Notes under the pieces: model-generated | Told to the model about the DNA's origin: nothing | Databases searched by the model: none | Seen by the model: the letters and a program-made list of their open reading frames with translations, nothing else | Shown here: positions 13,994 through 55,527 of the stretch, in pieces | Numbering within the stretch: position 1 is the stretch's first letter | Layout: every line of letters begins with the position of its first letter | Assembly: GCA_003151815.1 (NCBI GenBank) | Contig: PLYN01000058.1 | Location: 27,811 to 91,810, forward strand | From: Bacteroidota bacterium | GTDB taxonomy: Bacteria; Bacteroidota; Bacteroidia; 2-12-FULL-35-15 | DNA: 64,000 bases | Direction of reading: 5' to 3' | Program-made: the position numbers and the translations under genes

Positions 13994-14012
13994 ATTTTCC
14001 CTGATCCTTTAA

Positions 14013-15425
14013 ATGAGTAGCACAAGTTTAACTTTAGTTGAAAAAACAGAACAAGCTTTCGAGCAGTTAAAAAATTGTTCTGAATCCGATATCGGTAAAC
14101 ATTTCGATTCTATTTTTGAAACATACCCCATGTTAAAAAATGAGGAGAGATCAAAACTTGCTGAATCCTTTTATAATTGGGCTAAAGAAAACACAGTTAA
14201 TCAACCCTTAAAAATTTGTTATGCCAGCTATTTTTTTGCAGGTAATGATTTTTTTGCTGAAAAATATGAAACAGCCATCTTTCTGGCAATAAAAACTCAA
14301 CAACAATTTGCAGAACTCAATGATCAGGATGGAATAGCACTTGGCTCATCACTGCTTGGTGGTATATACCGTACACTTGGGAATGTTGATCTGGCGCTAA
14401 AAACACTTTGGGAGGCTTACGAACACCTTAAAACATCCAATTTTTTTCGGCACAATTTAATGGTTTGCAGTTTTCAGATCGCCAGCATTTATGCAGAAAT
14501 GAAAAATGATGATGAGGCAATACTTCTTTTCAAAAGTACATTTGAAACAGCAGAAAAATTACACAACAAAATGTGGATGATGCATTCCTTAAACGGTTTA
14601 GGAAAAGTATGCCTCATGCAAAAAAAATATCCGGAGGCTAAAGAATATCATGAAAAAGGAATGGCCATCGCTGAAAAACTTAATACGCCTATACATCTTT
14701 CTATATCCTTAACCGAGTTAGCAAATTATTATTTTGAAACAGGCAATTATGCTGAATCTGAACAATTACACCTAAAAGCATTAGCTATCCGCGAACAAAA
14801 TAAATTTCATGGAGGCGCTATCACCAACCTTCTTGGTTTAAGTGAAATTTATATCAGGCAAGAAAAATTTGATGAAGCAATTGTAATGTTAAACAAAGCT
14901 TTGAAAATTGGAGAGGAATTAAAAGTAAAGCCGAAAATTTTTCAAATACATTTTCTGCTTTCTAAAGTATATGAGCTAAAACAAGATCTGCCACAAAGTT
15001 TAATTCATTATAAATTATACCATCAAATTCAAGAGGAAGTTGAAAAAGAAGATGCAGCGAAAAAAATAAAAAACATTCAACTTATTTTTGAAGCTGAACA
15101 AACAAAAAAAGAAAATATTATCATCAAAAAGCAGAAAAAAGAAATTGAAGAAAAAAATACTGAACTGCAGGAAACTATTGATGAATTAACCATTACCAAG
15201 GTAAGTAAAAAGGCGAAGATCATCACAATGGTTATTGCCATTGTATTATTTATAGCTGAAGAAATAATTCATCATAGTGTACTACATCTTATGCATGATG
15301 ATGACTTTACAATGTCATTAATAGTTAAAGGTGTTATTGTTATTTCTTTAAAACCTATTGATAGTGGCGTTGAACATTTTTTGCTAAAAAAAATAATTCT
15401 AAAGAAAAAAATAGTCGTTAGTTAA
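14013..15425 (+). CDS. tetratricopeptide-repeat protein with C-terminal coiled coil and TM segments, no output domain
   Basis: Repeated A-x-x-Y/L TPR-like units. Lys/Glu-rich coiled coil (EAEQTKKENIIIKKQKKEIEEKNTELQETIDEL), then hydrophobic helices. Confidence 0.7.
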   Translation: MSSTSLTLVEKTEQAFEQLKNCSESDIGKHFDSIFETYPMLKNEERSKLAESFYNWAKENTVNQPLKICYASYFFAGNDFFAEKYETAIFLAIKTQQQFAELNDQDGIALGSSLLGGIYRTLGNVDLALKTLWEAYEHLKTSNFFRHNLMVCSFQIASIYAEMKNDDEAILLFKSTFETAEKLHNKMWMMHSLNGLGKVCLMQKKYPEAKEYHEKGMAIAEKLNTPIHLSISLTELANYYFETGNYAESEQLHLKALAIREQNKFHGGAITNLLGLSEIYIRQEKFDEAIVMLNKALKIGEELKVKPKIFQIHFLLSKVYELKQDLPQSLIHYKLYHQIQEEVEKEDAAKKIKNIQLIFEAEQTKKENIIIKKQKKEIEEKNTELQETIDELTITKVSKKAKIITMVIAIVLFIAEEIIHHSVLHLMHDDDFTMSLIVKGVIVISLKPIDSGVEHFLLKKIILKKKIVVS

Positions 15426-15450
15426 AAATAAAAAAATCAATAAACAGATT

Positions 15451-15804
15451 ATGAAATTCATCGTTCAACTTATTATTTCAACATTAGCAGTATTGATTAC
15501 CGCATATTTATTGCCTGGAGTACAAATAGAAGGCAACAACTTTTTTATAGCTTTGAAAGTCGCGGCTGTGCTGGCTTTTTTAAATGCAATTATAAAACCA
15601 ATAATGATTGTGTTGACAATTCCTATCACTATTGTTACACTCGGATTTTTTTTATTAGCGATTAACGCCTTTATAATTCTGCTTGCAAGCAGGTTGGTTG
15701 ATGGCTTTCACGTTGATGGATTTTGGTGGGCACTGCTATTCAGTTTGATTCTTTCTGTTGTTACATCAATTTTAGAAAGCGTTAAAAAGCGTGATGAACA
15801 GTAA
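15451..15804 (+). CDS. phage holin family 4_2 (DUF360/YvlD-like) membrane protein
   Basis: LLPGVQIEG...LNAIIKPIMIVLTIPITIVTLGFF...GFHVDGFWWAL is the typical signature. Four TM helices. Confidence 0.7.
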   Translation: MKFIVQLIISTLAVLITAYLLPGVQIEGNNFFIALKVAAVLAFLNAIIKPIMIVLTIPITIVTLGFFLLAINAFIILLASRLVDGFHVDGFWWALLFSLILSVVTSILESVKKRDEQ

Positions 15805-15874
15805 ATCAATTAATTGATTATTGATGTGCTGATTATCGATTAAAATTTAAAAGGATTGTAAATTACGAGGAACA

Positions 15875-15925
15875 AATCCCCCTTTCAAAGGGGGGCGCGG
15901 AGGCAAGAGGCGTTGCAGGGGGATT
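15875..15925. repeat. GC-rich element with two mutually exclusive hairpins
   Basis: aatccccct (15875-15883) can pair either with aggggg (15889-15895) or with agggggatt (15917-15925). It is a GC island in AT-rich spacer. Confidence 0.55.
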
Positions 15926-15955
15926 AAAAACAAACAATACTAAAAACCTGAAAAA

Positions 15956-16777
15956 TTGATAAACATAGGCAAATACAACGAACTGGAAGTAGTGAAAGAA
16001 TTGGATTTTGGTATTTACCTGCGTGATGGAGATATAGAAATATTAATGCCTACCAAATGGGTTCCGAAAGACACTCGAATTGGGGATTTTTTAAATGTTT
16101 TTATCTTTCGTGATTCGGATGACAGGCTGATTGCAACTACTGTTGAGCCTTTCGCAATTGCAGATTCATTTGCATTTTTGGAAGCAAAACAAGTAAATGA
16201 TATCGGTGCTTTCCTGGATTGGGGAATGGATAAGGATTTGCTTGTTCCTTTTCGTGAACAACAAAATAAAATGGAGCCCGGCAAAAGCTATGTTGTTTTT
16301 GTTTATGTTGATGAAGAGACCGATCGTTTGGTAGCTTCAGCAAAACTGAGTAGATTTATTGAACGTGATAATATTGAAATCCAAGATGGCGATATCGTAG
16401 ATCTACTGATCTATTCAGAAACCGACCTTGGCTTTAATGCCATTGTTAACAACCTATACAGCGGCTTAATTTATAAAAATGAAATTTACGAAGCGATACG
16501 CATTGGAGATGCCATGAAAGGTTTTGTAAAGCATGTGCGTGAGGATAATAAAATTGATCTGAGCTTACAAAAAAGTGGTTTCGAATTGGTAGATGATGTA
16601 AAATGGCGCATCTTAAATATGATGAAACAAAACGGAGGCTTTCTTTCATTAACGGATAACAGCTCACCGGAAGAAATAAAATCAACATTACAAATAAGCA
16701 AGAAAGCATTCAAAAAAGCTATTGGCGCCCTTTACAGAGAACGATTGGTGAAGCTTACGGATAAAGGAGTACAATTA

Positions 16778-16789
<12 letters not shown>
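15956..16789 (+). CDS. S1-like RNA-binding domain protein (CvfB/YitL family)
   Basis: MINIGKYNELEVVKELDFGIYL..., three S1-like repeats and a C-terminal winged-helix-like tail. TTG start. Confidence 0.8.
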
Positions 16790-18806
<2,017 letters not shown>

Positions 18807-18826
18807 AAAAAACAATTCCAATTATT

Positions 18827-19540
18827 ATGGATAAACAGGTACAGATAAGTAAAGAACTTTTCAAAACTATTTTGCAAGACAGCGAGACAACTAAATCTGG
18901 CGACTTACAATTATTACAGACAATTTATTCTTTTGATAATCATGAAGCTTCTGCGACTGATTTAGCAAAGACACTTGGTTATAAAGACAAAATTGTAGCA
19001 AATGCAATTATTGGAAGATTTGGAAAACGTATTGCAGAAAAATATGGCGTTCAAAGAGAACAATTAGAAAATGGTTCTTATGTAACCTATACACTATTTT
19101 TTAATGGTCATTGGGAAGATGCATTTTATATATGGGAACTAAAACCAGAGCTAATACAAGCACTTGAAGAACTTTCATTAAACACTATTTCTCATGAAAA
19201 AGAAATACAAAATAGTGAAACACAAAAAACTTTTACCGAAGGAACAGCCACAGAAGTAACACTAACAAGATACGAAAGAGACCCAAAGGCAAGAACTGAA
19301 TGTATTAAATATTATGGATATACATGTTCTGTATGCTCTTTTGATTTTGAAAAACATTACGGACAAATTGGTAAAAATTTTATTCACGTTCATCACTTGA
19401 CAGAAATCTCATCAATTGGAGAGACTTATGAAATAAATCCAATCAAAGATTTACGACCTGTCTGCCCAAACTGCCATGCTATGATACATAGGAGAAAACC
19501 ATTGTTGAGTATTGAAGAATTAAAAAAAGAAATTCAATGA
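18827..19540 (+). CDS. HNH endonuclease (McrA-like C-terminal nuclease with an uncharacterised N-terminal domain)
   Basis: RDPKARTECIKYYGYTCSVCSF...FIHVHHL...CPNCHAMIH gives the CxxC...HH...CxxC-H HNH zinc-finger pattern. The stop overlaps the next start (ATGA). Confidence 0.8.
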   Translation: MDKQVQISKELFKTILQDSETTKSGDLQLLQTIYSFDNHEASATDLAKTLGYKDKIVANAIIGRFGKRIAEKYGVQREQLENGSYVTYTLFFNGHWEDAFYIWELKPELIQALEELSLNTISHEKEIQNSETQKTFTEGTATEVTLTRYERDPKARTECIKYYGYTCSVCSFDFEKHYGQIGKNFIHVHHLTEISSIGETYEINPIKDLRPVCPNCHAMIHRRKPLLSIEELKKEIQ

Positions 19541-20160
19541 AACTAATTGTAATATCTAATCCGATTAACTTAAAAGATGAACACTCTATTTTATGTTCAT
19601 TGTTTGACGCCGGATTAAAATATTATCATCTTCGAAAACCAGATTTTACATATAAAGAATTAGAAGAGTACATTCAACAAATTCCAAAACAATACAGAGA
19701 CAAAGTGATACTTCATTCGCATCATCAATTGGCTGTTGAATATGGGGTAAAGGGTGTGCATTTTACAAATAAAAATCCGTATCAGGAATCAGATAATTTT
19801 CAGAAAAATATGCATCACAGTGCTTCTTTTCATTCATTGGGAGAAATAAAAAATGCTACGCCAATTTTTCAATATGTGTTTATAAGTCCTGTGTTTGATA
19901 GTATTTCAAAAGCTGATCACAAAACGCAAATAGACAAAACTGCTTTGAAGTTGTTTCTACAAAGGGAAACTAAAACAACTGAAATAATAGCGCTTGGAGG
20001 AATTAACAGTGATACGATCGCTGAAGCTGCGGATATGGGTTTTGACGGAATGGCTCTGTTAGGAAGTATCTGGATGTCGGGGAAACCGATAGAATCATTT
20101 AAGGAATTATTAAGTGTTACAGGTGGATTTAATAAAATTGAAAACAACATCCATGTCTGA
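19537..20160 (+). CDS. thiamine-phosphate synthase / TenI family protein (divergent paralog)
   Basis: TMP-TENI fold pattern: YHLRKP, GVHFT, ISPVFDSISK, ALGGIN. Confidence 0.7.
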   Translation: MKLIVISNPINLKDEHSILCSLFDAGLKYYHLRKPDFTYKELEEYIQQIPKQYRDKVILHSHHQLAVEYGVKGVHFTNKNPYQESDNFQKNMHHSASFHSLGEIKNATPIFQYVFISPVFDSISKADHKTQIDKTALKLFLQRETKTTEIIALGGINSDTIAEAADMGFDGMALLGSIWMSGKPIESFKELLSVTGGFNKIENNIHV

Positions 20161-20929
20161 TACCCGACCAACAATATTAAGCATTGCCGGTTTCGACCCA
20201 AGTGCCGGAGCCGGAGTATTGGCGGATGTAAAAACATTTGAGGCTTGCGGAGTATATGGGATGGGAGTCGTTTCTGCAATAACATATCAAAATGATATTG
20301 AATTTAAAAAAGTCGAATGGTTAAGTATTTCTCAGATAATAGAACAGATAGAAGTCCTTCAAAAGCGATTTAAATTTGAATATATTAAAATCGGTTTGAT
20401 AGAAAATTTGGAAATATTGCATCAACTTATTTCTCATTTAAAATCAGGCAATCCGACAACTAAAATTATTTGGGATCCCATTTTAAAGGCAAGTGCAGGA
20501 TTTGAATTTTACAATATTAAAAATCAAAATTTGCTGGAAGAAATTTGTTCTCAACTTTATTTGATAACCCCTAATATACCGGAGGCATTGCAATTAGGAA
20601 CCATTAAGGATGCAGAAAAAAATTCACAACACTTAAGTAAATTTTGCAATGTGTATTTAAAAGGTGGGCACAATGAAGAAGGAAAAGGAGTTGATATTTT
20701 ATTTACAAAAGATAAAAAGCACACATTATTTCCATCAACAACAAATATTATTTTTCCAAAACACGGCTCAGGATGTGTTTTATCGTCAGCTATTACAGCT
20801 TATTTAGCAAAAGGTTTATCATTGGAACAAGCTTGTATGGAGGCAAAAAAATATGTTACTGAATTTTTATTGAGTAACGATTCTTTATTAGGTTATCATA
20901 GCAATTTAACAAGTATTGCACATGAATAA
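20153..20929 (+). CDS. thiD: hydroxymethylpyrimidine / phosphomethylpyrimidine kinase
   Basis: ILSIAGFDPSAGAGVLADVKTF... I prefer the ATG at 20153 (8-nt overlap with the upstream stop) to the GTG at 20114 used by the ORF track. Confidence 0.85.
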   Translation: MSDTRPTILSIAGFDPSAGAGVLADVKTFEACGVYGMGVVSAITYQNDIEFKKVEWLSISQIIEQIEVLQKRFKFEYIKIGLIENLEILHQLISHLKSGNPTTKIIWDPILKASAGFEFYNIKNQNLLEEICSQLYLITPNIPEALQLGTIKDAEKNSQHLSKFCNVYLKGGHNEEGKGVDILFTKDKKHTLFPSTTNIIFPKHGSGCVLSSAITAYLAKGLSLEQACMEAKKYVTEFLLSNDSLLGYHSNLTSIAHE

Positions 20930-21569
20930 GAACATTTCACATTTACAATTTATAACGCAAGATATTGAAGGTATTGGTCACTCTGAACTTGCTTTGACAG
21001 CTTGTTCTGCAGGAATAGATTGGATACAATTACGTGTAAAAAACAGATCGTATAATGAATGGTTGGATATTGCTCTTAAAACTGAAATGATATGCCGTAA
21101 ATATCACGCCAGGTTTATTGTTAATGATAATGTGGTTATTGCAAAAGCTGTGAAAGCGGACGGTGTGCATTTAGGAAAATCGGATATGAGTCCGCGTGAA
21201 GCACGACAAGAATTAGGCAGCAAAGCCATTATTGGTGGGACAGCTAACTCCTTTGAAGACATAGAAGAATTGAACGATGCAGGAATTGATTATATTGGCT
21301 TAGGGCCGTTTCGATTTACTGCTACCAAAGAAAATTTAAGTCCGGTATTGGGAATTGAAGGATATAAGAATATCATAGATCAATGCAAAAAAAATGGAAT
21401 CACGATTCCTATTATTGCCATTGGAGGAATTAAGATAGAAGATGTTAAACCACTTGCAGAAACGGGTGTATATGGTATTGCTGTTGCTTCTGCTATTAGC
21501 ACTTCGCCTAATATATTTGAAGCTGCGAAACGTTTTAAGAGTAAAGTGAAAATTGGATTTGAGAAGTAA
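20916..21569 (+). CDS. thiE: thiamine-phosphate synthase
   Basis: Canonical ThiE pattern: IQLRVK, DGVHLGKSD, IGGTANS, GLGPFRFTATKEN, AIGGI. Confidence 0.85.
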   Translation: MHMNKNISHLQFITQDIEGIGHSELALTACSAGIDWIQLRVKNRSYNEWLDIALKTEMICRKYHARFIVNDNVVIAKAVKADGVHLGKSDMSPREARQELGSKAIIGGTANSFEDIEELNDAGIDYIGLGPFRFTATKENLSPVLGIEGYKNIIDQCKKNGITIPIIAIGGIKIEDVKPLAETGVYGIAVASAISTSPNIFEAAKRFKSKVKIGFEK

Positions 21570-21574
21570 AAAAA

Positions 21575-21670
21575 CTCACGCAGATTGCGCAGATTTTCGC
21601 GGATAAAAAAATAAAAGAAAAAACAATATTTGATAACTAAAGATCTGCGAAAATCAGCGAAATCAGCGAG
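21575..21670. repeat. empty palindromic element of the cgcaga/tctgcg family (MITE-like)
   Basis: Arms ctcacgcagattgcgcagattttcgcggat (21575-21604) and atctgcgaaaatcagcgaaatcagcgag (21643-21670) are imperfect reverse complements. They lie between the thiE stop and the thiG start. Confidence 0.6.
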
Positions 21671-21687
21671 CAAAAAATACAGAGATC

Positions 21688-22458
21688 ATGAAAAAATTAA
21701 AAATTGGCGACAAAGAATTCAGTTCCAGACTATTCACAGGAACAGGGAAATTCAGCTCATCACAATTGATGGAAGAAGCCTTACTTGCTTCGGGTTCGGA
21801 GTTAGTAACCGTTGCACTTAAACGGGTGGATATGCATAGTGATGACGATGATATTTTAAAACATCTTTGGCATCCGCAATTTAATTTATTGCCGAATACT
21901 TCCGGAGTACGTACCGCTAAAGAGGCTGTATTTGCCGCGCAATTATCACGTGAGGCATTGGAAACTAACTGGCTTAAATTAGAGATACATCCGGATCCTA
22001 AATACCTCCTACCCGACCCAATAGAAACATTAAAAGCAGCGGAAGAATTAGTAAAACTGGGCTTTATTGTATTGCCCTACATCCATGCCGATCCTGTTTT
22101 GTGTAAACATTTGGTAGAGGTTGGTGTTGCAGCGGTAATGCCATTAGGTTCCCCGATTGGCAGTAATAGCGGTTTATTGACAAAACGATTTTTAGAAATA
22201 ATCATTGAGCAAAGCAATGTGCCTGTAATTATAGATGCCGGAATTGGTGCGCCATCACATGCTGCAGAAGCAATGGAAATGGGTGCTGCTGCTGTATTGG
22301 TAAATACCGCAATTGCTGTATCTGAAAATCCAATACAAATGGCAATAGCTTTTAAAATGGCAGTAGAAGCTGGAAGAATGGCATATGAAGCGCGTTTGGC
22401 AAAACCCAAAAACTATGCGGAAGCAAGTAGTCCGTTGACATCGTTTTTACAAGATTAA
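21688..22458 (+). CDS. thiG: thiazole synthase
   Basis: Full-length ThiG ([33 protein letters not shown]). Confidence 0.95.
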
Positions 22459-22459
22459 A

Positions 22460-22993
22460 TTATTTCTCGCAGAGTTGCGCAGATAAAAAACGCTGAGTTT
22501 CGCAGAGCTAATCGCAGTTCCGATAGCTATCGGGATTCGCAGATAAATAAAAATGAAAGAAAACGATATATCTTTTGACATAAGAGGTGCAGCTTTTAAA
22601 GTACATACTGCATTAGGACCGGGGTTGCTAGAATCTGTTTATGAGATAGCGCTTTCGTATGAATTAAGAGAAAAAGGATATGATGTAAAAAATTAGCAGG
22701 GAATTCCGTTGATCTATTCGAATATAAAAATGGATATTGGTTTTAGGTTAGATATTATCGTAAATGATTTAGTAATTATTGAAGTGAAATCAGTTGAAAA
22801 GCTTATTGATGTGCATCACAAACAATTATTAACGTATTTGAAATTATCAAATAAAAAGTTAGGCTTACTTATTAATTTTAATGAATCGTCGTTAAAAGAC
22901 TCAATAGTAAGAATTGTAAATAACTTATAAATTATAAAACAAAAAAATCTGCGAAACTCCGCGAAAAAATCTGCGGAACTCTGCGAGAAATAA
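22460..22993. mobile_element. GxxExxY gene cassette bounded by ~47-nt imperfect terminal inverted repeats
   Basis: Left arm 22460-22506 is ttatttctcgcagagttgcgcagat-A6-cgctgagtttcgcaga. The reverse complement of the right arm 22948-22993 is ttatttctcgcagagttccgcagat-T5-cgcggagtttcgcaga. The cassette exactly fills the thiG-thiH spacer. Confidence 0.5.
22553..22930 (+). pseudogene. GxxExxY protein (PD-(D/E)XK-like) with an in-frame TAG
   Basis: MKENDISFDIRGAAFKVHTALGPGLLESVYE...DVKN*QGIPLIYSNIKMDIGFRLDIIVNDLVIIEVKS... The TAG at 22694-22696 is codon 48, and both halves are in the same frame. Confidence 0.75.
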
Positions 22994-22999
22994 GAAAAA

Positions 23000-24109
23000 A
23001 TGTTTACAGAACTATTCAATACATATAACTGGGACGAAATAAAACAAAGCATCTACTCTAAAACAAAAGCAGATGTGGAGCACGCTTTGAATAAAATCAC
23101 CAAACGTGATCTGGAAGATTTCAAATCTTTGATATCTCCGGCTGCAGCCGACTACCTTGAGCCAATGGCACAATTAAGTCAACGTTTAACACAAAAACGT
23201 TTCGGCAAAACAATTCAGATGTATGTACCACTTTATCTTTCTAATGAATGTCAGAATATTTGCACCTATTGCGGTTTTAGTTTCGATAATAAATTAAAAC
23301 GAAAAACTTTAACTGATGCTGAGATATTAAAAGAAGTAGAAGCAATAAAAGCGTTAGGGTTCGACCATGTATTACTTGTTACAGGTGAAGCAAACCAAAC
23401 TGTTGGAGTTCCATATTTAAAAAATGCTATCAAATTAATTCGTCCACACTTTTCGCTTATCTCCATGGAAGTGCAACCGCTCGATCAGCATGAATACGAA
23501 GAATTAATTACCGAAGGATTAAATACCGTTTTGGTATACCAGGAAACATATCACAAAGAGGATTATAAACTGCATCATCCGAAAGGAAAAAAATCTAATT
23601 TTAATTACCGACTCGAAACACCTGATAGATTGGGGAAATCAGGTATTCATAAAATTGGCTTGGGTACACTTATCGGTTTAGAAGATTGGCGTACCGATTC
23701 ATTTTTTAATGCTTTGCATTTAACTTATCTTGAAAAAAAGTACTGGCGCACAAAGTATTCTATTTCATTTCCTCGCCTGCGTCCTGCCGAAGGGATCATA
23801 GAACCTAAAGTGGTAATGAATGATAAAGAATTGGTGCAGTTGATATGTGCCTATCGCATTTTTAATGAAGAAATTGAACTTTCTATTTCAACACGTGAGA
23901 ATGAAAATTTTCGTAACAACATCATCAAATTAGGAATCACTTCGATGAGTGCAGGCTCTAAAACAAATCCCGGTGGTTATGCCGTTGAAAAAGAATCGCT
24001 CGAACAGTTTGAGATCAGCGACGAACGCAGTCCGAAAGAAATAGAGCAACTCATTAAATTAAATGATTATGAGGTAGTATGGAAAGATTGGGATAACGTT
24101 TTAACCTAA
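23000..24109 (+). CDS. thiH: 2-iminoacetate synthase (radical SAM)
   Basis: CQNICTYCGF radical-SAM cluster motif and ThiH-like length. Confidence 0.9.
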   Translation: MFTELFNTYNWDEIKQSIYSKTKADVEHALNKITKRDLEDFKSLISPAAADYLEPMAQLSQRLTQKRFGKTIQMYVPLYLSNECQNICTYCGFSFDNKLKRKTLTDAEILKEVEAIKALGFDHVLLVTGEANQTVGVPYLKNAIKLIRPHFSLISMEVQPLDQHEYEELITEGLNTVLVYQETYHKEDYKLHHPKGKKSNFNYRLETPDRLGKSGIHKIGLGTLIGLEDWRTDSFFNALHLTYLEKKYWRTKYSISFPRLRPAEGIIEPKVVMNDKELVQLICAYRIFNEEIELSISTRENENFRNNIIKLGITSMSAGSKTNPGGYAVEKESLEQFEISDERSPKEIEQLIKLNDYEVVWKDWDNVLT

Positions 24110-24111
24110 AA

Positions 24112-24747
24112 CTATTCGATTGGAATATTTAACTCTTGAAATTTTTCTACGATCTTATTAAACTCAACCACCGGATCTTTCGACTTCCAGATAGAACTAT
24201 AAAATGCTAATCCTTTAAAATCAATTTTCTTTGCTTTTTCAATGGAAGATACTTCAACCCCACCTCTTGCTATCACATCAAATTTTGTTTTTTGAATAGC
24301 AGAATGCAAACTGTGTTCAGTGAATCCGCTTTGAAATTTACTTGTTATACTATCAAATATAGGACTTAAAAAAACATACGAATAATGATATTTTTGATCT
24401 GTTTCCAAAAGCTGTCCAATGGTTCGGAATGAGGTGGTGATTTTAATATGAGGGTTTTTAAGTCGAATTAATTTTAACGATAACCAGGTTTGGAATTTCT
24501 TTTTTTTATGCGTAGATGTTAAATGAATACCGCCCAACTTAAACGTTGATGCCAGATTGTGGTGTGAGTGAATATATATTCTATTGTGAAAATGTGTCGG
24601 GATCTGTTTAATAAATTTCTTCATTTGATTGGTAGAAAGTTTAAGTTTTCTTAAATGAAAAGTTTCAAGTCCGGCTTCAAATAATTGAGTAACTATTTGC
24701 GCTTCATTTTCAATGCCGCTAGAACTTGAAATAACGATTAACTTCAT
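24112..24747 (-). CDS. thiamine-phosphate synthase / TenI family protein (third paralog)
   Basis: MKLIVISSSSGIENEAQIVTQLFEAGLETFHLRK..GGIHLTS..LSPIFDSITSK closely parallels 19537-20160. Lies downstream of the GGGPS-like gene on the minus strand. Confidence 0.65.
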   Translation of the reverse strand: MKLIVISSSSGIENEAQIVTQLFEAGLETFHLRKLKLSTNQMKKFIKQIPTHFHNRIYIHSHHNLASTFKLGGIHLTSTHKKKKFQTWLSLKLIRLKNPHIKITTSFRTIGQLLETDQKYHYSYVFLSPIFDSITSKFQSGFTEHSLHSAIQKTKFDVIARGGVEVSSIEKAKKIDFKGLAFYSSIWKSKDPVVEFNKIVEKFQELNIPIE

Positions 24748-24770
24748 ACGTTTTTTATTGATTGTTATAT

Positions 24771-25505
24771 TTAAAATGCATGAATAGCCTTCGAAATACT
24801 TTGTATCAAGGATGGATCTTTTTCAATTGCATTGCCGATCACCACAACATCTGCACCTGATTTACAAGCAGTCACAGCTTTTTCAGAACTATTAATCCCA
24901 CCCCCAACGATCAATGGCACATTAGTATTTATACTCACTTTATTGATCATTGTTTCACTAACGTTATTTATTGCGCCACTTCCGGCATCTAAATATATTA
25001 ATTTTAGTCCCAACATTTCTCCAGCCATCGCAGTAGCCATGGCAATGTCGTCTTTATCAAATGGTATCGGATTGGTGTTACTCATATAAGACGCCGCAGT
25101 TTGTTTACCACTTTCAATAAGCATATATCCTGTTGATAAGATCTCTAAATTACTCGACTTTAATTTCGTGGATGCAACCACATGATTTCCAATCAGCATA
25201 TCGGCATTACGACCGGAAATAAGAGAAAGAAGCAATATTCCATCAGCACTCTTACTTATTTGCAAATTATTTCCCGGGAAAATCAATACCGGAATTTTAG
25301 TATGTTTTTTAATTGTCTGGATACATTCCTCAAAATTACCGTTGGTAATGATGCTGCCACCAACCATAATGAAATCAACATTTGCAGACTCACACAATCT
25401 AATAACTTCGGTTGATTTAAATTTATCAGGATCTACTAAGACGGCAAACAGCTTTTTTCCTTGCTTTTTGGCTTCTAATATAGATGTGTAAATGGTTTGT
25501 TGCAT
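24771..25505 (-). CDS. geranylgeranylglyceryl / heptaprenylglyceryl phosphate synthase family protein (PcrB/GGGPS)
   Basis: FAVLVDPDK, FIMVGGS, IFPGN, SGRN, YLDAGSGA and VGGGI are the PcrB/GGGPS TIM-barrel signature. Confidence 0.8.
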   Translation of the reverse strand: MQQTIYTSILEAKKQGKKLFAVLVDPDKFKSTEVIRLCESANVDFIMVGGSIITNGNFEECIQTIKKHTKIPVLIFPGNNLQISKSADGILLLSLISGRNADMLIGNHVVASTKLKSSNLEILSTGYMLIESGKQTAASYMSNTNPIPFDKDDIAMATAMAGEMLGLKLIYLDAGSGAINNVSETMINKVSINTNVPLIVGGGINSSEKAVTACKSGADVVVIGNAIEKDPSLIQSISKAIHAF

Positions 25506-25556
25506 TATTAGTGACTATTTAATTTTACTCAAAAGATTTGTGATGCCAAACGCAAA

Positions 25557-25623
25557 GTCTTCGACAAGCTCAGACTGACCGCGCTCGAGGTCATATTGAG
25601 TTTATCGAAATATGTGCGAAGGC
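25557..25623. repeat. GC-rich nested palindromic element in the ahcY upstream region
   Basis: cttcgaca...tgtgcgaag outer pairing and tgacc-gcgctcga-ggtca inner hairpin (25576-25593). A GC island in AT-rich spacer. Confidence 0.45.
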
Positions 25624-25798
25624 TTGAAAAATAATACTGCCATAACTCTATCATATTTAAATGCAATATTAATTAAATCATTTGAGCATTTTTCATTTTA
25701 TTTTAGGAATAACCTTTGTCCAAAAAGCCTTATAAAAATTTGTTTGTTACCTTCAAAACAACTAATTTCGCCCTCTCAATTAACTAAAAACAAAAAAA

Positions 25799-27118
25799 AT
25801 GGCAAATACATCCGCAGTGAAATTTGAAAAATACAAAGTAAAAGACATGTCCTTGGCAGAATGGGGACGCAAAGAAATAAAATTAGCTGAAGTGGAGATG
25901 CCGGGTTTAATGGCCCTTCGTGCTGAATTTGGTGCGTCAAAACCATTAAAAAACGCAAGAATTGCAGGTTGTTTACACATGACCATTCAAACGGCAGTAT
26001 TAATTGAAACATTGATCGAATTGGGTGCAGAGGTTACCTGGTCGTCATGTAATATTTTTTCAACACAAGATCATGCTGCTGCTGCTATTGCTGCTGCAGG
26101 TATTTCAGTATATGCCTGGAAAGGTATGAATGAACAGGAATTTGACTGGTGTATCGAACAAACATTATTTTTTGGAGAAGACCGTAAACCATTGAACATG
26201 ATATTGGATGATGGTGGTGACTTAACAAATATGGTGTTTGATAGATTCCCTGAATTAATAAAAGAGATCAAAGGTCTTTCGGAAGAAACGACTACAGGTG
26301 TTCACCGTTTATACGAGCGTATGAAAAACGGAACATTGCACATCCCTGCAATTAACGTGAACGACTCTGTTACCAAATCTAAATTTGATAATAAATACGG
26401 TTGCCGTGAATCATTGGTTGACGCGATCAGAAGAGCTACCGACTTGATGCTTGCAGGAAAAGTGGCAGTAGTAGCAGGTTATGGTGATGTTGGAAAAGGT
26501 TCAGCAGAATCATTAAGCTCACAAGGCGTACGCGTTATTGTTACTGAAATTGATCCCATTTGTGCGCTACAAGCTGCAATGGACGGATACCAGGTACAAA
26601 AAATGGACAGAGCAATAAAAGAAGCTGACATTATTGTTACAGCTACAGGTAATAAAAACATCATTACTGACCGTCATTTCAAAGCAATGAAACACAATGC
26701 TATTGTTTGTAATATCGGTCACTTCGATAATGAAATTGATATGGCCTGGTTAAATAAAAACCATGGTGCTTCAAAAGATGTTATTAAACCACAAGTGGAT
26801 AAATATACTGTTGATGGTAAAGATATTATTGTTCTTGCAGAAGGACGTTTAGTGAATTTAGGTTGTGCAACAGGACATCCTTCATTTGTTATGAGTAACT
26901 CATTTACTAACCAAACATTGGCACAATTAGAACTTTGGATCAATACTGATCAATACGAAAACAAAGTATACGTTTTGCCAAAACATTTAGATGAAAAAGT
27001 GGCTCGTTTACACCTGGCAAAAATCAGTGTTGAATTAGATGTGTTAACAAAAGAACAAGCTGCATATATCGGCGTTCCCGTTGAAGGTCCATTTAAATCA
27101 GATGCTTACAGATACTAA
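25799..27118 (+). CDS. ahcY: adenosylhomocysteinase
   Basis: Full-length AhcY ([27 protein letters not shown] site, C-terminal KSDAYRY). Confidence 0.95.
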
Positions 27119-55101: not shown

Positions 55102-55527
55102 ATGGAAATAGCAAATAAAATATCTATCACGATAGAAACCACTGTAAACGCTTCAATTGAAAAGATTTGAGAATTCTGGAATAAACCCCAACACATTACC
55201 AAATGGTATAATGCATCAGAAGATTGGCATGCACCATCTGCTGAAAACGACTTAAAAGTTGGTGGAAAAAGCATGATCAAAATGGCAGCAAAAGATGGCA
55301 GTTTTGGTTTTGATTTTATATTTATTCACACAAAAATAAAAGATCTGGAACTTATTGAATCTACTATGGAGGATGGAAGAAAAATGTCCGTTCAGTTTTT
55401 AAAAACAGATAATGGACTTAAAATTATTGAAATATTTGAAGCGGAAACTACCAATCCTATTGAAATGCAAAAAGGTGGATGGCAGGCTATTTTGAACAAT
55501 TTTAAAAAATATGTAGAGTCAAATTAG
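55102..55527 (+). pseudogene. SRPBCC / AHSA1-family protein interrupted by TGA at a conserved Trp position
   Basis: MEIANKISITIETTVNASIEKI*EFWNKPQHITKWYNASEDWHAPSAENDLKVGGK...GGWQAILNNFKKYVESN. The TGA at 55168-55170 sits where homologs have W (..KVWEFW..). The frame is continuous. Confidence 0.7.

What the first reader, a model, noticed from the sequence alone, without database searches (positions are those of the whole stretch)
22460..22993. GxxExxY pseudogene cassette with ~47-nt terminal inverted repeats precisely filling the thiG-thiH spacer
Seen: the left arm starts 2 nt after the thiG stop and the right arm ends 6 nt before the thiH ATG. The first 25 nt of the arms match at 24 of 25 positions and the inner 16 nt at 15 of 16. 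An A6 versus T5 tract lies between them. Inside are a 14-bp perfect palindrome (ccgatagctatcgg, 22520-22533) and a GxxExxY-family ORF (GPGLLESVYE) broken by a single TAG at codon 48. Established: GxxExxY proteins are a small PD-(D/E)XK-like family, abundant and multi-copy in Bacteroidota, with unknown function. Inference: the inverted-repeat framing suggests the gene travels as a discrete cassette. This copy is decaying while the operon around it stays intact.
Basis: partly seen in the sequence, partly recalled or inferred. Interest (0 to 1): 0.6.

Follow-up and report, generated by a model that had tools for sequence, protein, structure and literature searches.

The report
Hairpin-armed GxxExxY nuclease cassette, freshly broken
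A small nuclease gene enclosed by two mirror-image arms of repeated 7-base words sits as an insert between the thiamine genes thiG and thiH and carries one fresh stop codon; it belongs to a widespread gene-plus-repeat unit, not found described in print, that resembles the intervening sequences of ribosomal RNA.

Summary
The thiG-thiH spacer (541 nt) is filled by a GxxExxY (PF13366/TIGR04256) gene between about 47-nt inverted arms. One TAG replaces a nearly invariant Gln48.

The arms are arrays of four CGCNGA(G/T) heptamers, not plain repeats.

Evidence that gene and arms form one unit:
- All four GxxExxY genes of this genome have their own arms, each with its own heptamer.
- 76 of 105 and 40 of 78 relatives are framed likewise, against 6 and 1 in controls.
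- The heptamer type follows the protein tree.
- The same arms accompany the gene in other phyla.

At this junction related species are empty (8-13 nt), or hold the intact orthologue, a 67-nt relic, a second cassette lineage, or gene-less hairpins.

The orthologous arms stay 75-91% identical where synonymous sites are saturated. The gene is under strong purifying selection (pN/pS about 0.08).

Gene-less arrays in a genome match the heptamer of its resident cassettes.

Most likely this is a nuclease-plus-cognate-repeat unit, like REP/RAYT or Ssn/NTS in logic and like ORF-bearing 23S rRNA intervening sequences in form. Movement and cleavage are not shown.

This scan has noted the same class in over 2,000 findings on other DNA.

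The parts
21575..21670 (.). Gene-less hairpin of the same heptamer family in the thiE-thiG spacer. Left array 21579-21604 and right array 21643-21668, three units each, with a 38-nt A-rich loop.
   Evidence: The closest relative G076 has thiE and thiG overlapping here, that is, an empty site. G049 has a solo right array.
21688..22458 (+). thiG (thiazole synthase), intact, upstream flank.
   Evidence: PF05690, 360 bits.
22460..22507 (+). Left arm. Terminal word TTCTCGC, then four heptamers at 22468 (CGCAGAG), 22478 (CGCAGAT), 22491 (CGCTGAG) and 22501 (CGCAGAG).
   Evidence: It is 75-82% identical to the left arms of the orthologous cassettes, although synonymous sites are saturated.
22507..22543 (+). 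37-nt leader segment specific to this genome, bounded by an 8-nt direct repeat TTCGCAGA. It holds the 14-bp palindrome 22520-22533 and two extra units (22513, 22538).
   Evidence: Absent from the orthologues G049 and L070, where the fourth unit abuts the ATG. The palindrome is unique in the genome.
22553..22930 (+). GxxExxY / PD-(D/E)XK gene, 125 codons, interrupted by TAG at 22694-22696 (codon 48, elsewhere Gln). Catalytic E27, D67, E77 and K79 are present.
   Evidence: Model pLDDT is 93.7 and the nearest fold is Cas4 SSO0001.
22947..22993 (+). Right arm: four units read as TCTGCG/CTCNGCG at 22948, 22957, 22970 and 22979, ending in GCGAGAA.
   Evidence: It is 80-89% identical to the orthologous right arms.
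23000..24109 (+). thiH (2-iminoacetate synthase), intact, downstream flank.
   Evidence: TIGR02351, 550 bits.

Best explanation
This is one copy of a two-part unit: a small PD-(D/E)XK (GxxExxY) nuclease gene in the loop of a long inverted repeat, whose arms are arrays of a clade-specific heptamer.

Shown:
- The unit occupies the thiG-thiH junction as a block, and the block is absent from near relatives.
- Gene and arms are inherited and transferred together.
- Both the gene and the arm sequences are under strong purifying selection.
- Gene-less arrays of the same heptamer are scattered over the genome.
- Across the genus, the array type that has expanded in a genome is the type that flanks a resident GxxExxY gene.
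- The unit lies on the operon strand, no promoter of its own was recognised, and the arms close into a long stem in the predicted transcript.

Inferred:
- The heptamers are the recognition sites of the encoded nuclease. The partnership would resemble REP with RAYT, or NTS with Ssn.
- This partnership would underlie the rare gain, loss and spread of gene-less copies.
- The operon tolerates the insert because the stem can be handled like a 23S rRNA intervening sequence.

In this genome a C-to-T change turned Gln48 (CAG) into TAG very recently. That leaves the CGCAGA-type arrays without an intact cognate gene in the 77%-complete assembly.
For: Unit character:
- All 4 genomic copies have their own complementary arms.
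- 76 of 105 and 40 of 78 relatives have flanking inverted repeats, against 6 and 1 in reversed controls.
- The heptamer type is clade-coherent on the protein tree.
- Arms of the form TCTCGCAAAG-CGCAAAG accompany the gene in MAGs labelled Planctomycetota, Chloroflexota, Spirochaetota and Ignavibacteria.

Insertion:
- G076, G080 and G075 have 8-13-nt spacers.
- G049, L070, L071, L151 and L152 hold the same cassette lineage at the same junction.
- G023 holds a relic, and G068 holds a different lineage (62% aa; dN 0.37 against 0.07-0.11 in the flanks).

Selection:
- For the ORF, G000 against G049 gives pN 0.048 and pS 0.615, like thiG and thiH.
- The arms are 75-91% identical where pS is 0.62-0.70.
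- Complementarity within an element (34 of 44) is no higher than between elements (34.9 of 44), so the sequence is what is conserved, not element-specific pairing.

Cognate arrays:
- This genome has 47 CGCNGAK, 39 CACRGAG and 14 CACAGAT arrays. These are the types of its own cassettes. It has only 3 arrays of the foreign CGCAAAG type.
- Across 68 genomes the CGCAGAK and CGCAAAG expansions largely exclude each other, and each flanks a resident gene.
- All 5 genomes without the gene have neither array type, against 41 of 63 with the gene.

RNA: the arms pair in the MFE and centroid structures, z = -6.3.

Fold: a confident minimal nuclease core, nearest to Cas4.
Against: - No cleavage or binding has been shown.
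- No target-site duplication can be recognised.
- There are no near-identical copies within the genome; the four copies are 32-48% identical.
- The cassette has stayed at one junction while the flanks diverged to 71-74% identity. This looks like a resident gene rather than an active transposon.
- The flank tree does not formally exclude a single gain without losses (p-AU 0.051).
- A four-helix-bundle gene, which is not a nuclease, also sits between arms.
- Co-occurrence of arrays and genes is expected if the arrays are merely decayed cassettes.
- The genus counts ignore relatedness.
- Later checks recorded by this scan priced the self-mobilising reading at only 12-28%.
Confidence: 0.5

Rival explanations
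1. A purely RNA-level, IVS-like element. The arms matter only as a double-stranded RNA stem in the thi transcript. RNase III cuts the stem, which uncouples thiG, the insert and thiH. The nuclease has nothing to do with the arms.
For: - Same strand as the operon, with no promoter recognised.
- A stem of about 45 bp is predicted in the MFE and centroid structures.
- The ORF-bearing 23S rRNA IVS of Coxiella has terminal inverted repeats, tandem heptamers (GACAGAT) before the ORF, proven RNase III excision and a decaying ORF (PMC4990558).
- 82% of upstream neighbours are co-oriented with the cassette gene.
Against: - RNase III needs no conserved heptamer, yet the words are conserved and clade-specific.
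- Mismatches between the arms persist across species without compensation.
- The gene is under strong purifying selection, unlike the Coxiella ORF.
- 16 of 89 cassettes face a divergent upstream gene.
- No RNA data could be obtained.
Confidence: 0.2
2. The hairpin is the mobile or recombinogenic unit, and the gene is passive cargo captured between two arms. The framing then says nothing about what the nuclease does.
For: - Gene-less hairpins far outnumber cassettes: 11 paired hairpins and 23 solo arrays against one gene for this heptamer.
- A four-helix-bundle gene also lies between arms.
- In L151 the gene lies between two complete hairpins.
Against: - The heptamer type tracks the protein clade.
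- The same gene-arm pairing recurs across phyla.
- Each cargo gene in this genome has its own heptamer.
- An earlier scan-wide count found 62% of PF13366 genes framed against about 1% of other genes (not mine).
Confidence: 0.15
3. The TAG is an assembly or consensus error of this metagenome-assembled genome. The gene is intact, so nothing is decaying here.
For: - It is the only lesion, and all invariant residues are kept.
- The terminal branch is not longer than those of the orthologues.
- A second single-nonsense lesion of the same C-to-T type lies in the window at 55168-55170. That could point to damaged or mixed template.
Against: - It is a substitution outside any homopolymer, which is a rare error type in short-read consensus.
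- Other family members carry single stops at other codons.
- A related species shows a real relic at this site.
Confidence: 0.15

Closest known systems
ORF-bearing intervening sequences (IVS) of 23S rRNA, for example Coxiella burnetii and Leptospira (PMC4990558)
   Same: - An element of 430-550 nt closed by terminal inverted repeats that form a long stem.
- A roughly 120-codon ORF in the loop.
- Tandem heptamers of the NNCAGAT kind next to the ORF.
- Rides on a host transcript.
- The ORF is prone to decay.
- Regarded as selfish.
   Different: - It lies in an mRNA operon spacer, not in helix 45 of 23S rRNA.
- The cargo is a PD-(D/E)XK nuclease, not the S23p four-helix bundle.
- The cargo is under strong purifying selection.
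- RNase III cutting has not been tested here.
REP/REPIN repeats with their RAYT transposase (PMC3733652; my own knowledge for RAYT biochemistry)
   Same: - A single small nuclease gene flanked by inverted copies of the repeat that is dispersed over the genome in gene-less form.
- The repeat type matches the resident gene.
- Inheritance is mostly vertical.
   Different: - The enzyme is a PD-(D/E)XK fold, not a HUH/Y1 fold.
- The arms are arrays of 3-4 spaced heptamers rather than one 20-40-bp palindrome.
- Copy numbers are tens, not hundreds.
Ssn GIY-YIG nucleases with NTS/SRM repeats (PMC11893778)
   Same: - A small nuclease gene with its target repeats on both sides: 42% of homologues are flanked on both sides.
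- The repeats are dispersed in the genome.
- The association spans phyla.
   Different: - The nuclease fold is unrelated.
- For Ssn, single-strand-specific cleavage and an effect on transformation are shown. Nothing has been shown for GxxExxY.
MITEs and Correia-type elements (my own knowledge)
   Same: - Short, inverted-repeat-bounded inserts in intergenic, co-transcribed positions.
- The gene-less copies look like non-autonomous derivatives.
   Different: - No transposase.
- No target-site duplication recognised.
- The arms are internally repetitive.

Membership tests
GxxExxY protein family (TIGR04256 / PF13366 PDDEXK_3) | Profile score above the curated cut-off over the full length. | tested here: met
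   TIGR04256 scores 140.9 bits (cut-off 35) over 2-116 of 116. PF13366 scores 134.3 bits (cut-off 22).
GxxExxY protein family (TIGR04256 / PF13366 PDDEXK_3) | GxxExxY motif and the PD-(D/E)XK catalytic residues. | tested here: met
   G24, E27, Y30, D67, E77 and K79 are invariant in 42 sequences and present here. The fold model has pLDDT 93.7 and its nearest solved structure is Cas4 SSO0001.
GxxExxY protein family (TIGR04256 / PF13366 PDDEXK_3) | Intact reading frame. | tested here: not met
   TAG at codon 48 where at least 90% of relatives have Gln. TAG is an ordinary stop in this genome, ending 194 of 1012 long ORFs.
23S rRNA intervening sequence | Inserted in a 23S rRNA helix. | tested here: not met
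   It lies between thiG and thiH. No Rfam family matches in 14000-26000.
23S rRNA intervening sequence | Terminal inverted repeats form a stem around an ORF. | tested here: met
23S rRNA intervening sequence | Excision from the transcript by RNase III. | not testable with these tools
REP/RAYT (REPIN) system | HUH/Y1 (RAYT) transposase gene. | tested here: not met
   The enclosed gene is PD-(D/E)XK.
REP/RAYT (REPIN) system | The gene is flanked by inverted copies of a repeat that is dispersed in the same genome. | tested here: met
Ssn/NTS system | GIY-YIG nuclease. | tested here: not met
   Pfam and fold results place it in PD-(D/E)XK.
TIR transposon / MITE | Target-site duplication at the ends. 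| tested here: inconclusive
   None is recognisable in the A/T-rich 8-13-nt target. In outer-clade genomes the overlapped ATGAAT junction is duplicated around the insert.
TIR transposon / MITE | Several near-identical copies in a genome, showing recent transposition. | tested here: not met
   The four GxxExxY copies are 32-48% identical to this one.
Integron gene cassette | A single attC site downstream and an integrase with attI nearby. | not tested
   The architecture differs, with arms on both sides. No integrase search was made.

The most novel reading that the evidence does not exclude
GxxExxY genes with their heptamer-array arms, their gene-less hairpin copies and the ORF-bearing intervening sequences of 23S rRNA are one class of very small mobile element. 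In this class the encoded protein recognises the phased heptamers and drives insertion and clean excision at gene junctions. This would give the 30-year-old IVS puzzle a mechanism and add a third nuclease-plus-repeat system beside REP/RAYT and Ssn/NTS.
Probability: 0.2. Interest if true: 0.8.

Novelty: new variant of a known kind. Interest (0 to 1): 0.5.

Why it matters
GxxExxY proteins are among the commonest uncharacterised small proteins of Bacteroidota and many other phyla.

This locus offers a natural series at one junction: an intact cassette, a cassette freshly broken by one stop codon, a relic, empty sites, a second cassette lineage and gene-less hairpins.

It also shows that the non-coding arms are conserved about as strongly as amino-acid-changing sites in the gene, and that the array types in a genome match its resident genes.

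Together these turn 'function unknown' into a testable claim: the protein recognises its own heptamer arrays. The locus also links the old question of what ORF-bearing rRNA intervening sequences are to an experimentally easier mRNA context.

Tried and rejected
Metagenome and genome scans returned no conspecific copy; the best were 90-92%.
- PDB sequence search: no hit at E up to 10. Foldseek found nothing at E of 0.001 or better.
- Rfam: no family in 14000-26000, so no TPP riboswitch was seen there.
- Promoter and terminator scans were at chance level.
- Target-site duplication: none found.
- The 14-bp palindrome is not a repeat family.
- Loops of the gene-less hairpins show no remnant of the ORF.
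- Ordering relatives by dS failed because synonymous sites are saturated (pS 0.6-0.76).
- The AU test of a single clade of cassette bearers was borderline (p 0.051), and the group was named after the tree was seen. The number of losses therefore stays open.
- Helical phasing was dropped as an argument. Spacing is 10-13 nt here but 8-9 nt in the CGCAAAG and CGCAGAG clades.
- Co-orientation with upstream genes (82%) is too close to the usual background to decide anything.

Full report
WHAT IS THERE

thiG (21688-22458) and thiH (23000-24109) are intact and lie on the + strand. The 541 nt between them hold a 125-codon ORF (22553-22930). When TAG 22694-22696 is read through, the ORF matches PF13366 (134 bits) and TIGR04256 'GxxExxY' (141 bits) end to end.

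The ORF lies between two arms:
- 22460-22484 pairs with 22969-22993 at 24 of 25 positions.
- 22491-22506 pairs with 22948-22963 at 15 of 16 positions.

The 14-bp palindrome is at 22520-22533.

Two refinements apply.
- The tract between the arm halves is an A-run on the + strand on both sides, so it is an unpaired loop.
- Each arm is an array of four CGCNGA(G/T) heptamers spaced 10-13 nt apart, ending outward in TTCTCGC.

The arm word occurs 7 times in the window against 0.08 expected. Four of these are in the arms and two are in the thiE-thiG spacer, which holds a gene-less hairpin of three plus three units.

THE GENE

In a 42-sequence alignment, H18, G22, G24, E27, Y30, D67, E77, K79, Y95, G104, L105, N108 and F109 are invariant. 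All are present here. Position 48 is Gln in at least 90% of sequences. The TAG is therefore one C-to-T change in CAG, and it is the only lesion.

The predicted structure is confident (pLDDT 93.7, pTM 0.88). It is a minimal PD-(D/E)XK core. The nearest solved chains are Cas4 SSO0001, tRNA-splicing endonucleases and lambda exonuclease, none better than E = 0.0036. Weak Cas4 profile matches agree with this, and no PDB sequence relative exists.

TAG is a normal stop in this genome. Stops in other family pseudogenes lie at other codons, so recoding is not indicated.

GENE AND ARMS ARE ONE UNIT

- The genome (2.53 Mb, 61 contigs, 76.6% complete) has four GxxExxY genes. Each has its own complementary arms built from a different heptamer: CGCAGAG/T here, CACAGAG, CACGGAG/CACAGAG, and CACAGAT.
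- Among relatives from the genus and from metagenomes, 76 of 105 have an inverted repeat scoring 30 or more between their 200-nt flanks. The reversed, uncomplemented control gives 6 of 105.
- In named genomes the figures are 40 of 78 against 1 of 78.
- On the protein tree the heptamer types form coherent groups: a CGCAGAT group that holds the window, a CACAGAT group, a CGCAGAG group and a large CGCAAAG remainder.
- Proteins 55-63% identical to this one keep arms of the form TCTCGCAAAG-CGCAAAG-CGCAAAG in MAGs labelled Pirellulales, Zavarzinella, Anaerolineae, Spirochaetia, Ignavibacteria and others.
- The one four-helix-bundle (TIGR02436) gene of the genome also has arms, of yet another word.

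THE ORTHOLOGOUS JUNCTION

I collected thiG-thiH spacers from 28 species of the genus. On a ThiG+ThiH tree the window falls in a 9-species clade (support 100/100). The states found there are:

| Genome | State of the thiG-thiH spacer |
|---|---|
| G076 (groups with the window, support 93/77; ThiH 92%) | Empty, 11 nt |
| G080 | Empty, 13 nt |
| G075 | Empty, 8 nt |
| G049 | Same cassette, intact (92% aa), with additional right arms |
| G023 | 67-nt relic: the last 22 nt of the ORF (21 of 22 identical) plus a degenerate right arm |
| G068 | A gene-less hairpin plus a different cassette |
| G063 | A solo CACAGAG-type arm |
| G041 | An unrelated palindrome |

The G068 cassette is 62% identical in protein, with dN 0.37 against 0.07-0.11 for its flanks.

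In the outer clade most species have thiG and thiH overlapping. Two have gene-less CGCAGA hairpins at this junction.

The window's cassette lineage is also found at this same junction in metagenome and MAG contigs:
- L070: 90% protein identity.
- L071, L151 and L152: 82-83% protein identity, with flanking ThiG and ThiH only 71-74% identical to the window's.

The lineage also sits at other sites, such as upstream of dnaG in G062.

Protein divergence of the cassette rises with flank divergence: 8% against 12-14% for G049, and 17-18% against 26-29% for L071, L151 and L152. This fits long co-inheritance followed by many losses, but a site preference is not excluded.

An AU test disfavours, but does not formally reject, a single clade of the three cassette or relic bearers (delta lnL 21.7, p 0.051). 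The group was named after the tree was seen.

The thiE-thiG hairpin shows the same pattern. G076 is empty and overlapping, G000 has a full hairpin and G049 has a solo arm.

SELECTION

Between G000 and G049 the values are:

| Gene | pS | pN |
|---|---|---|
| Cassette ORF | 0.615 | 0.048 |
| thiG | 0.655 | 0.068 |
| thiH | 0.600 | 0.074 |

The gene has therefore been constrained like a housekeeping gene for nearly all of that time, and the TAG must be recent.

The 44-nt arms of four orthologous cassettes are 75-91% identical where the ORFs differ at 62-70% of synonymous sites. The arm sequence itself is conserved.

Complementarity between the two arms of one element (mean 34 of 44) is no higher than between arms of different elements (34.9 of 44). 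Some mismatches are shared across species, for example left CGCAAAG opposite right CGCGGAG. In this small sample there is thus no compensatory signal for pairing as such. Both arms simply conform to one consensus.

DISPERSED GENE-LESS ARRAYS

The genome holds 47 arrays of at least two CGC[ATG]GA[GT] units, against 0 in the reversed control. They comprise 11 gene-less hairpins, this cassette and 23 solo arrays.

Array counts by heptamer type in this genome:

| Heptamer type | Arrays | Resident cassette of that type |
|---|---|---|
| CGCNGAK | 47 | Yes (this one) |
| CACRGAG | 39 | Yes |
| CACAGAT | 14 | Yes |
| CGCAAAG | 3 | No |

Triple CGCWGAK arrays are frequent in G022, G048, G073, G065, G016 and G000. 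These genomes have 0 or 1 CGCWAAG arrays, except G016, which has 2. G050, G079, G053, G078, G051 and G007 show the reverse pattern.

Wherever I had the locus, the expanded array type flanks a resident GxxExxY gene.

The five genomes without any GxxExxY gene have neither array type, against 41 of 63 genomes with the gene. The hypergeometric p is about 0.008. This count ignores relatedness, and some of the five genomes are incomplete.

RNA CONTEXT

The cassette is on the operon strand. No promoter or terminator rises above chance. In the folded 556-nt transcript the arms close a long interrupted stem in both the MFE and the centroid structure (z = -6.3). No RNA data could be fetched.

COMPARISON WITH WHAT IS KNOWN

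The word 'GxxExxY' occurs in only three papers of the held library, and none deals with this architecture. PF13366 is listed as 'unknown' in the PD-(D/E)XK survey.

- Closest in form: the ORF-bearing 23S rRNA IVS. In Coxiella it is a 428-nt element with a 28-bp terminal stem and tandem GACAGAT heptamers before the ORF. It is excised by RNase III and its ORF is decaying (PMC4990558).
- Closest in logic: REP/RAYT (PMC3733652, abstract) and Ssn/NTS, where 42% of homologues have target repeats on both sides (PMC11893778).
- This element fails the defining features of each: it is not in rRNA, and it has neither a HUH nor a GIY-YIG enzyme. It works like them but is not a member.

EARLIER NOTES OF THIS SCAN

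The scan holds over 2,000 notes on the same class in other genomes. Later checks recorded there priced the self-mobilising reading at 12-28%.

My results agree with those notes. They add the junction series, the selection estimates on gene and arms, the lack of compensation between arms, and the cognate-array cross-tabulation within one genus.

VERDICT

This is a real cassette, recently inactivated or possibly mis-assembled at one base, in a class that is not yet in print.

The mechanism I commit to is that the nuclease recognises its own heptamer arrays and that the stem makes the insert tolerable in the transcript. This is inferred, not shown. I give it a confidence of about 0.5.

Noticed in passing
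G000 contigs C6:26900-27032, C28:1598-1709, C44:9015-9140, C44:36979-37161, C54:287-410, C54:272576-272611: A second, MITE-like family of 130-200 bp. Its roughly 32-nt terminal inverted repeats begin AATGGAACGCAGATGACGCAGAT, with two CGCAGAT units 9 nt apart. About eight solo ends also occur.
   Followed up: partly
window 55102-55527 (TGA at 55168-55170): A second single-nonsense lesion in the window, in an AHSA1/SRPBCC-like ORF. It is again of the C-to-T type. This could mean real decay or a template or assembly problem.
   Followed up: partly
L023, L027, L035 versus L040 (genus genomes G048, G073, G022 versus G065): A CGCAGAT-armed cassette about 850 nt downstream of thiH lies in opposite orientation relative to the same neighbour gene in G065. 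This could be an inversion between the arms or a separate insertion.
   Followed up: no
L151:300-1010: At thiG-thiH the GxxExxY gene sits between two complete hairpins. A 26-nt segment that includes the thiH start codon is duplicated on both sides.
   Followed up: no
L071:1860-2480, compared with L010, L055 and L056: Where thiG and thiH normally overlap (AATGAATAG), the cassette-bearing contig keeps ATGAAT at the thiG end and has a second ATGAAC as the thiH start. The overlapped junction is thus duplicated around the insert.
   Followed up: partly
G000:C58:30576-30899 (L005): The genome's one four-helix-bundle (TIGR02436, 'IVS protein') gene has its own inverted arms of TTTAAAGTTCAAA-type units.
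   Followed up: partly
L013, L014, L058, L060, L062 (thiG-thiH spacers of other species): An unrelated palindromic repeat (CTCTGACAGGGTTTTAAACCCTGTTAGAG type) fills the same junction in several species, in up to three copies. The junction is a general landing place for hairpin repeats.
   Followed up: no
window 22507-22543: A 37-nt segment specific to this genome in the cassette leader, bounded by an 8-nt direct repeat TTCGCAGA. It carries the unique 14-bp palindrome.
   Followed up: yes
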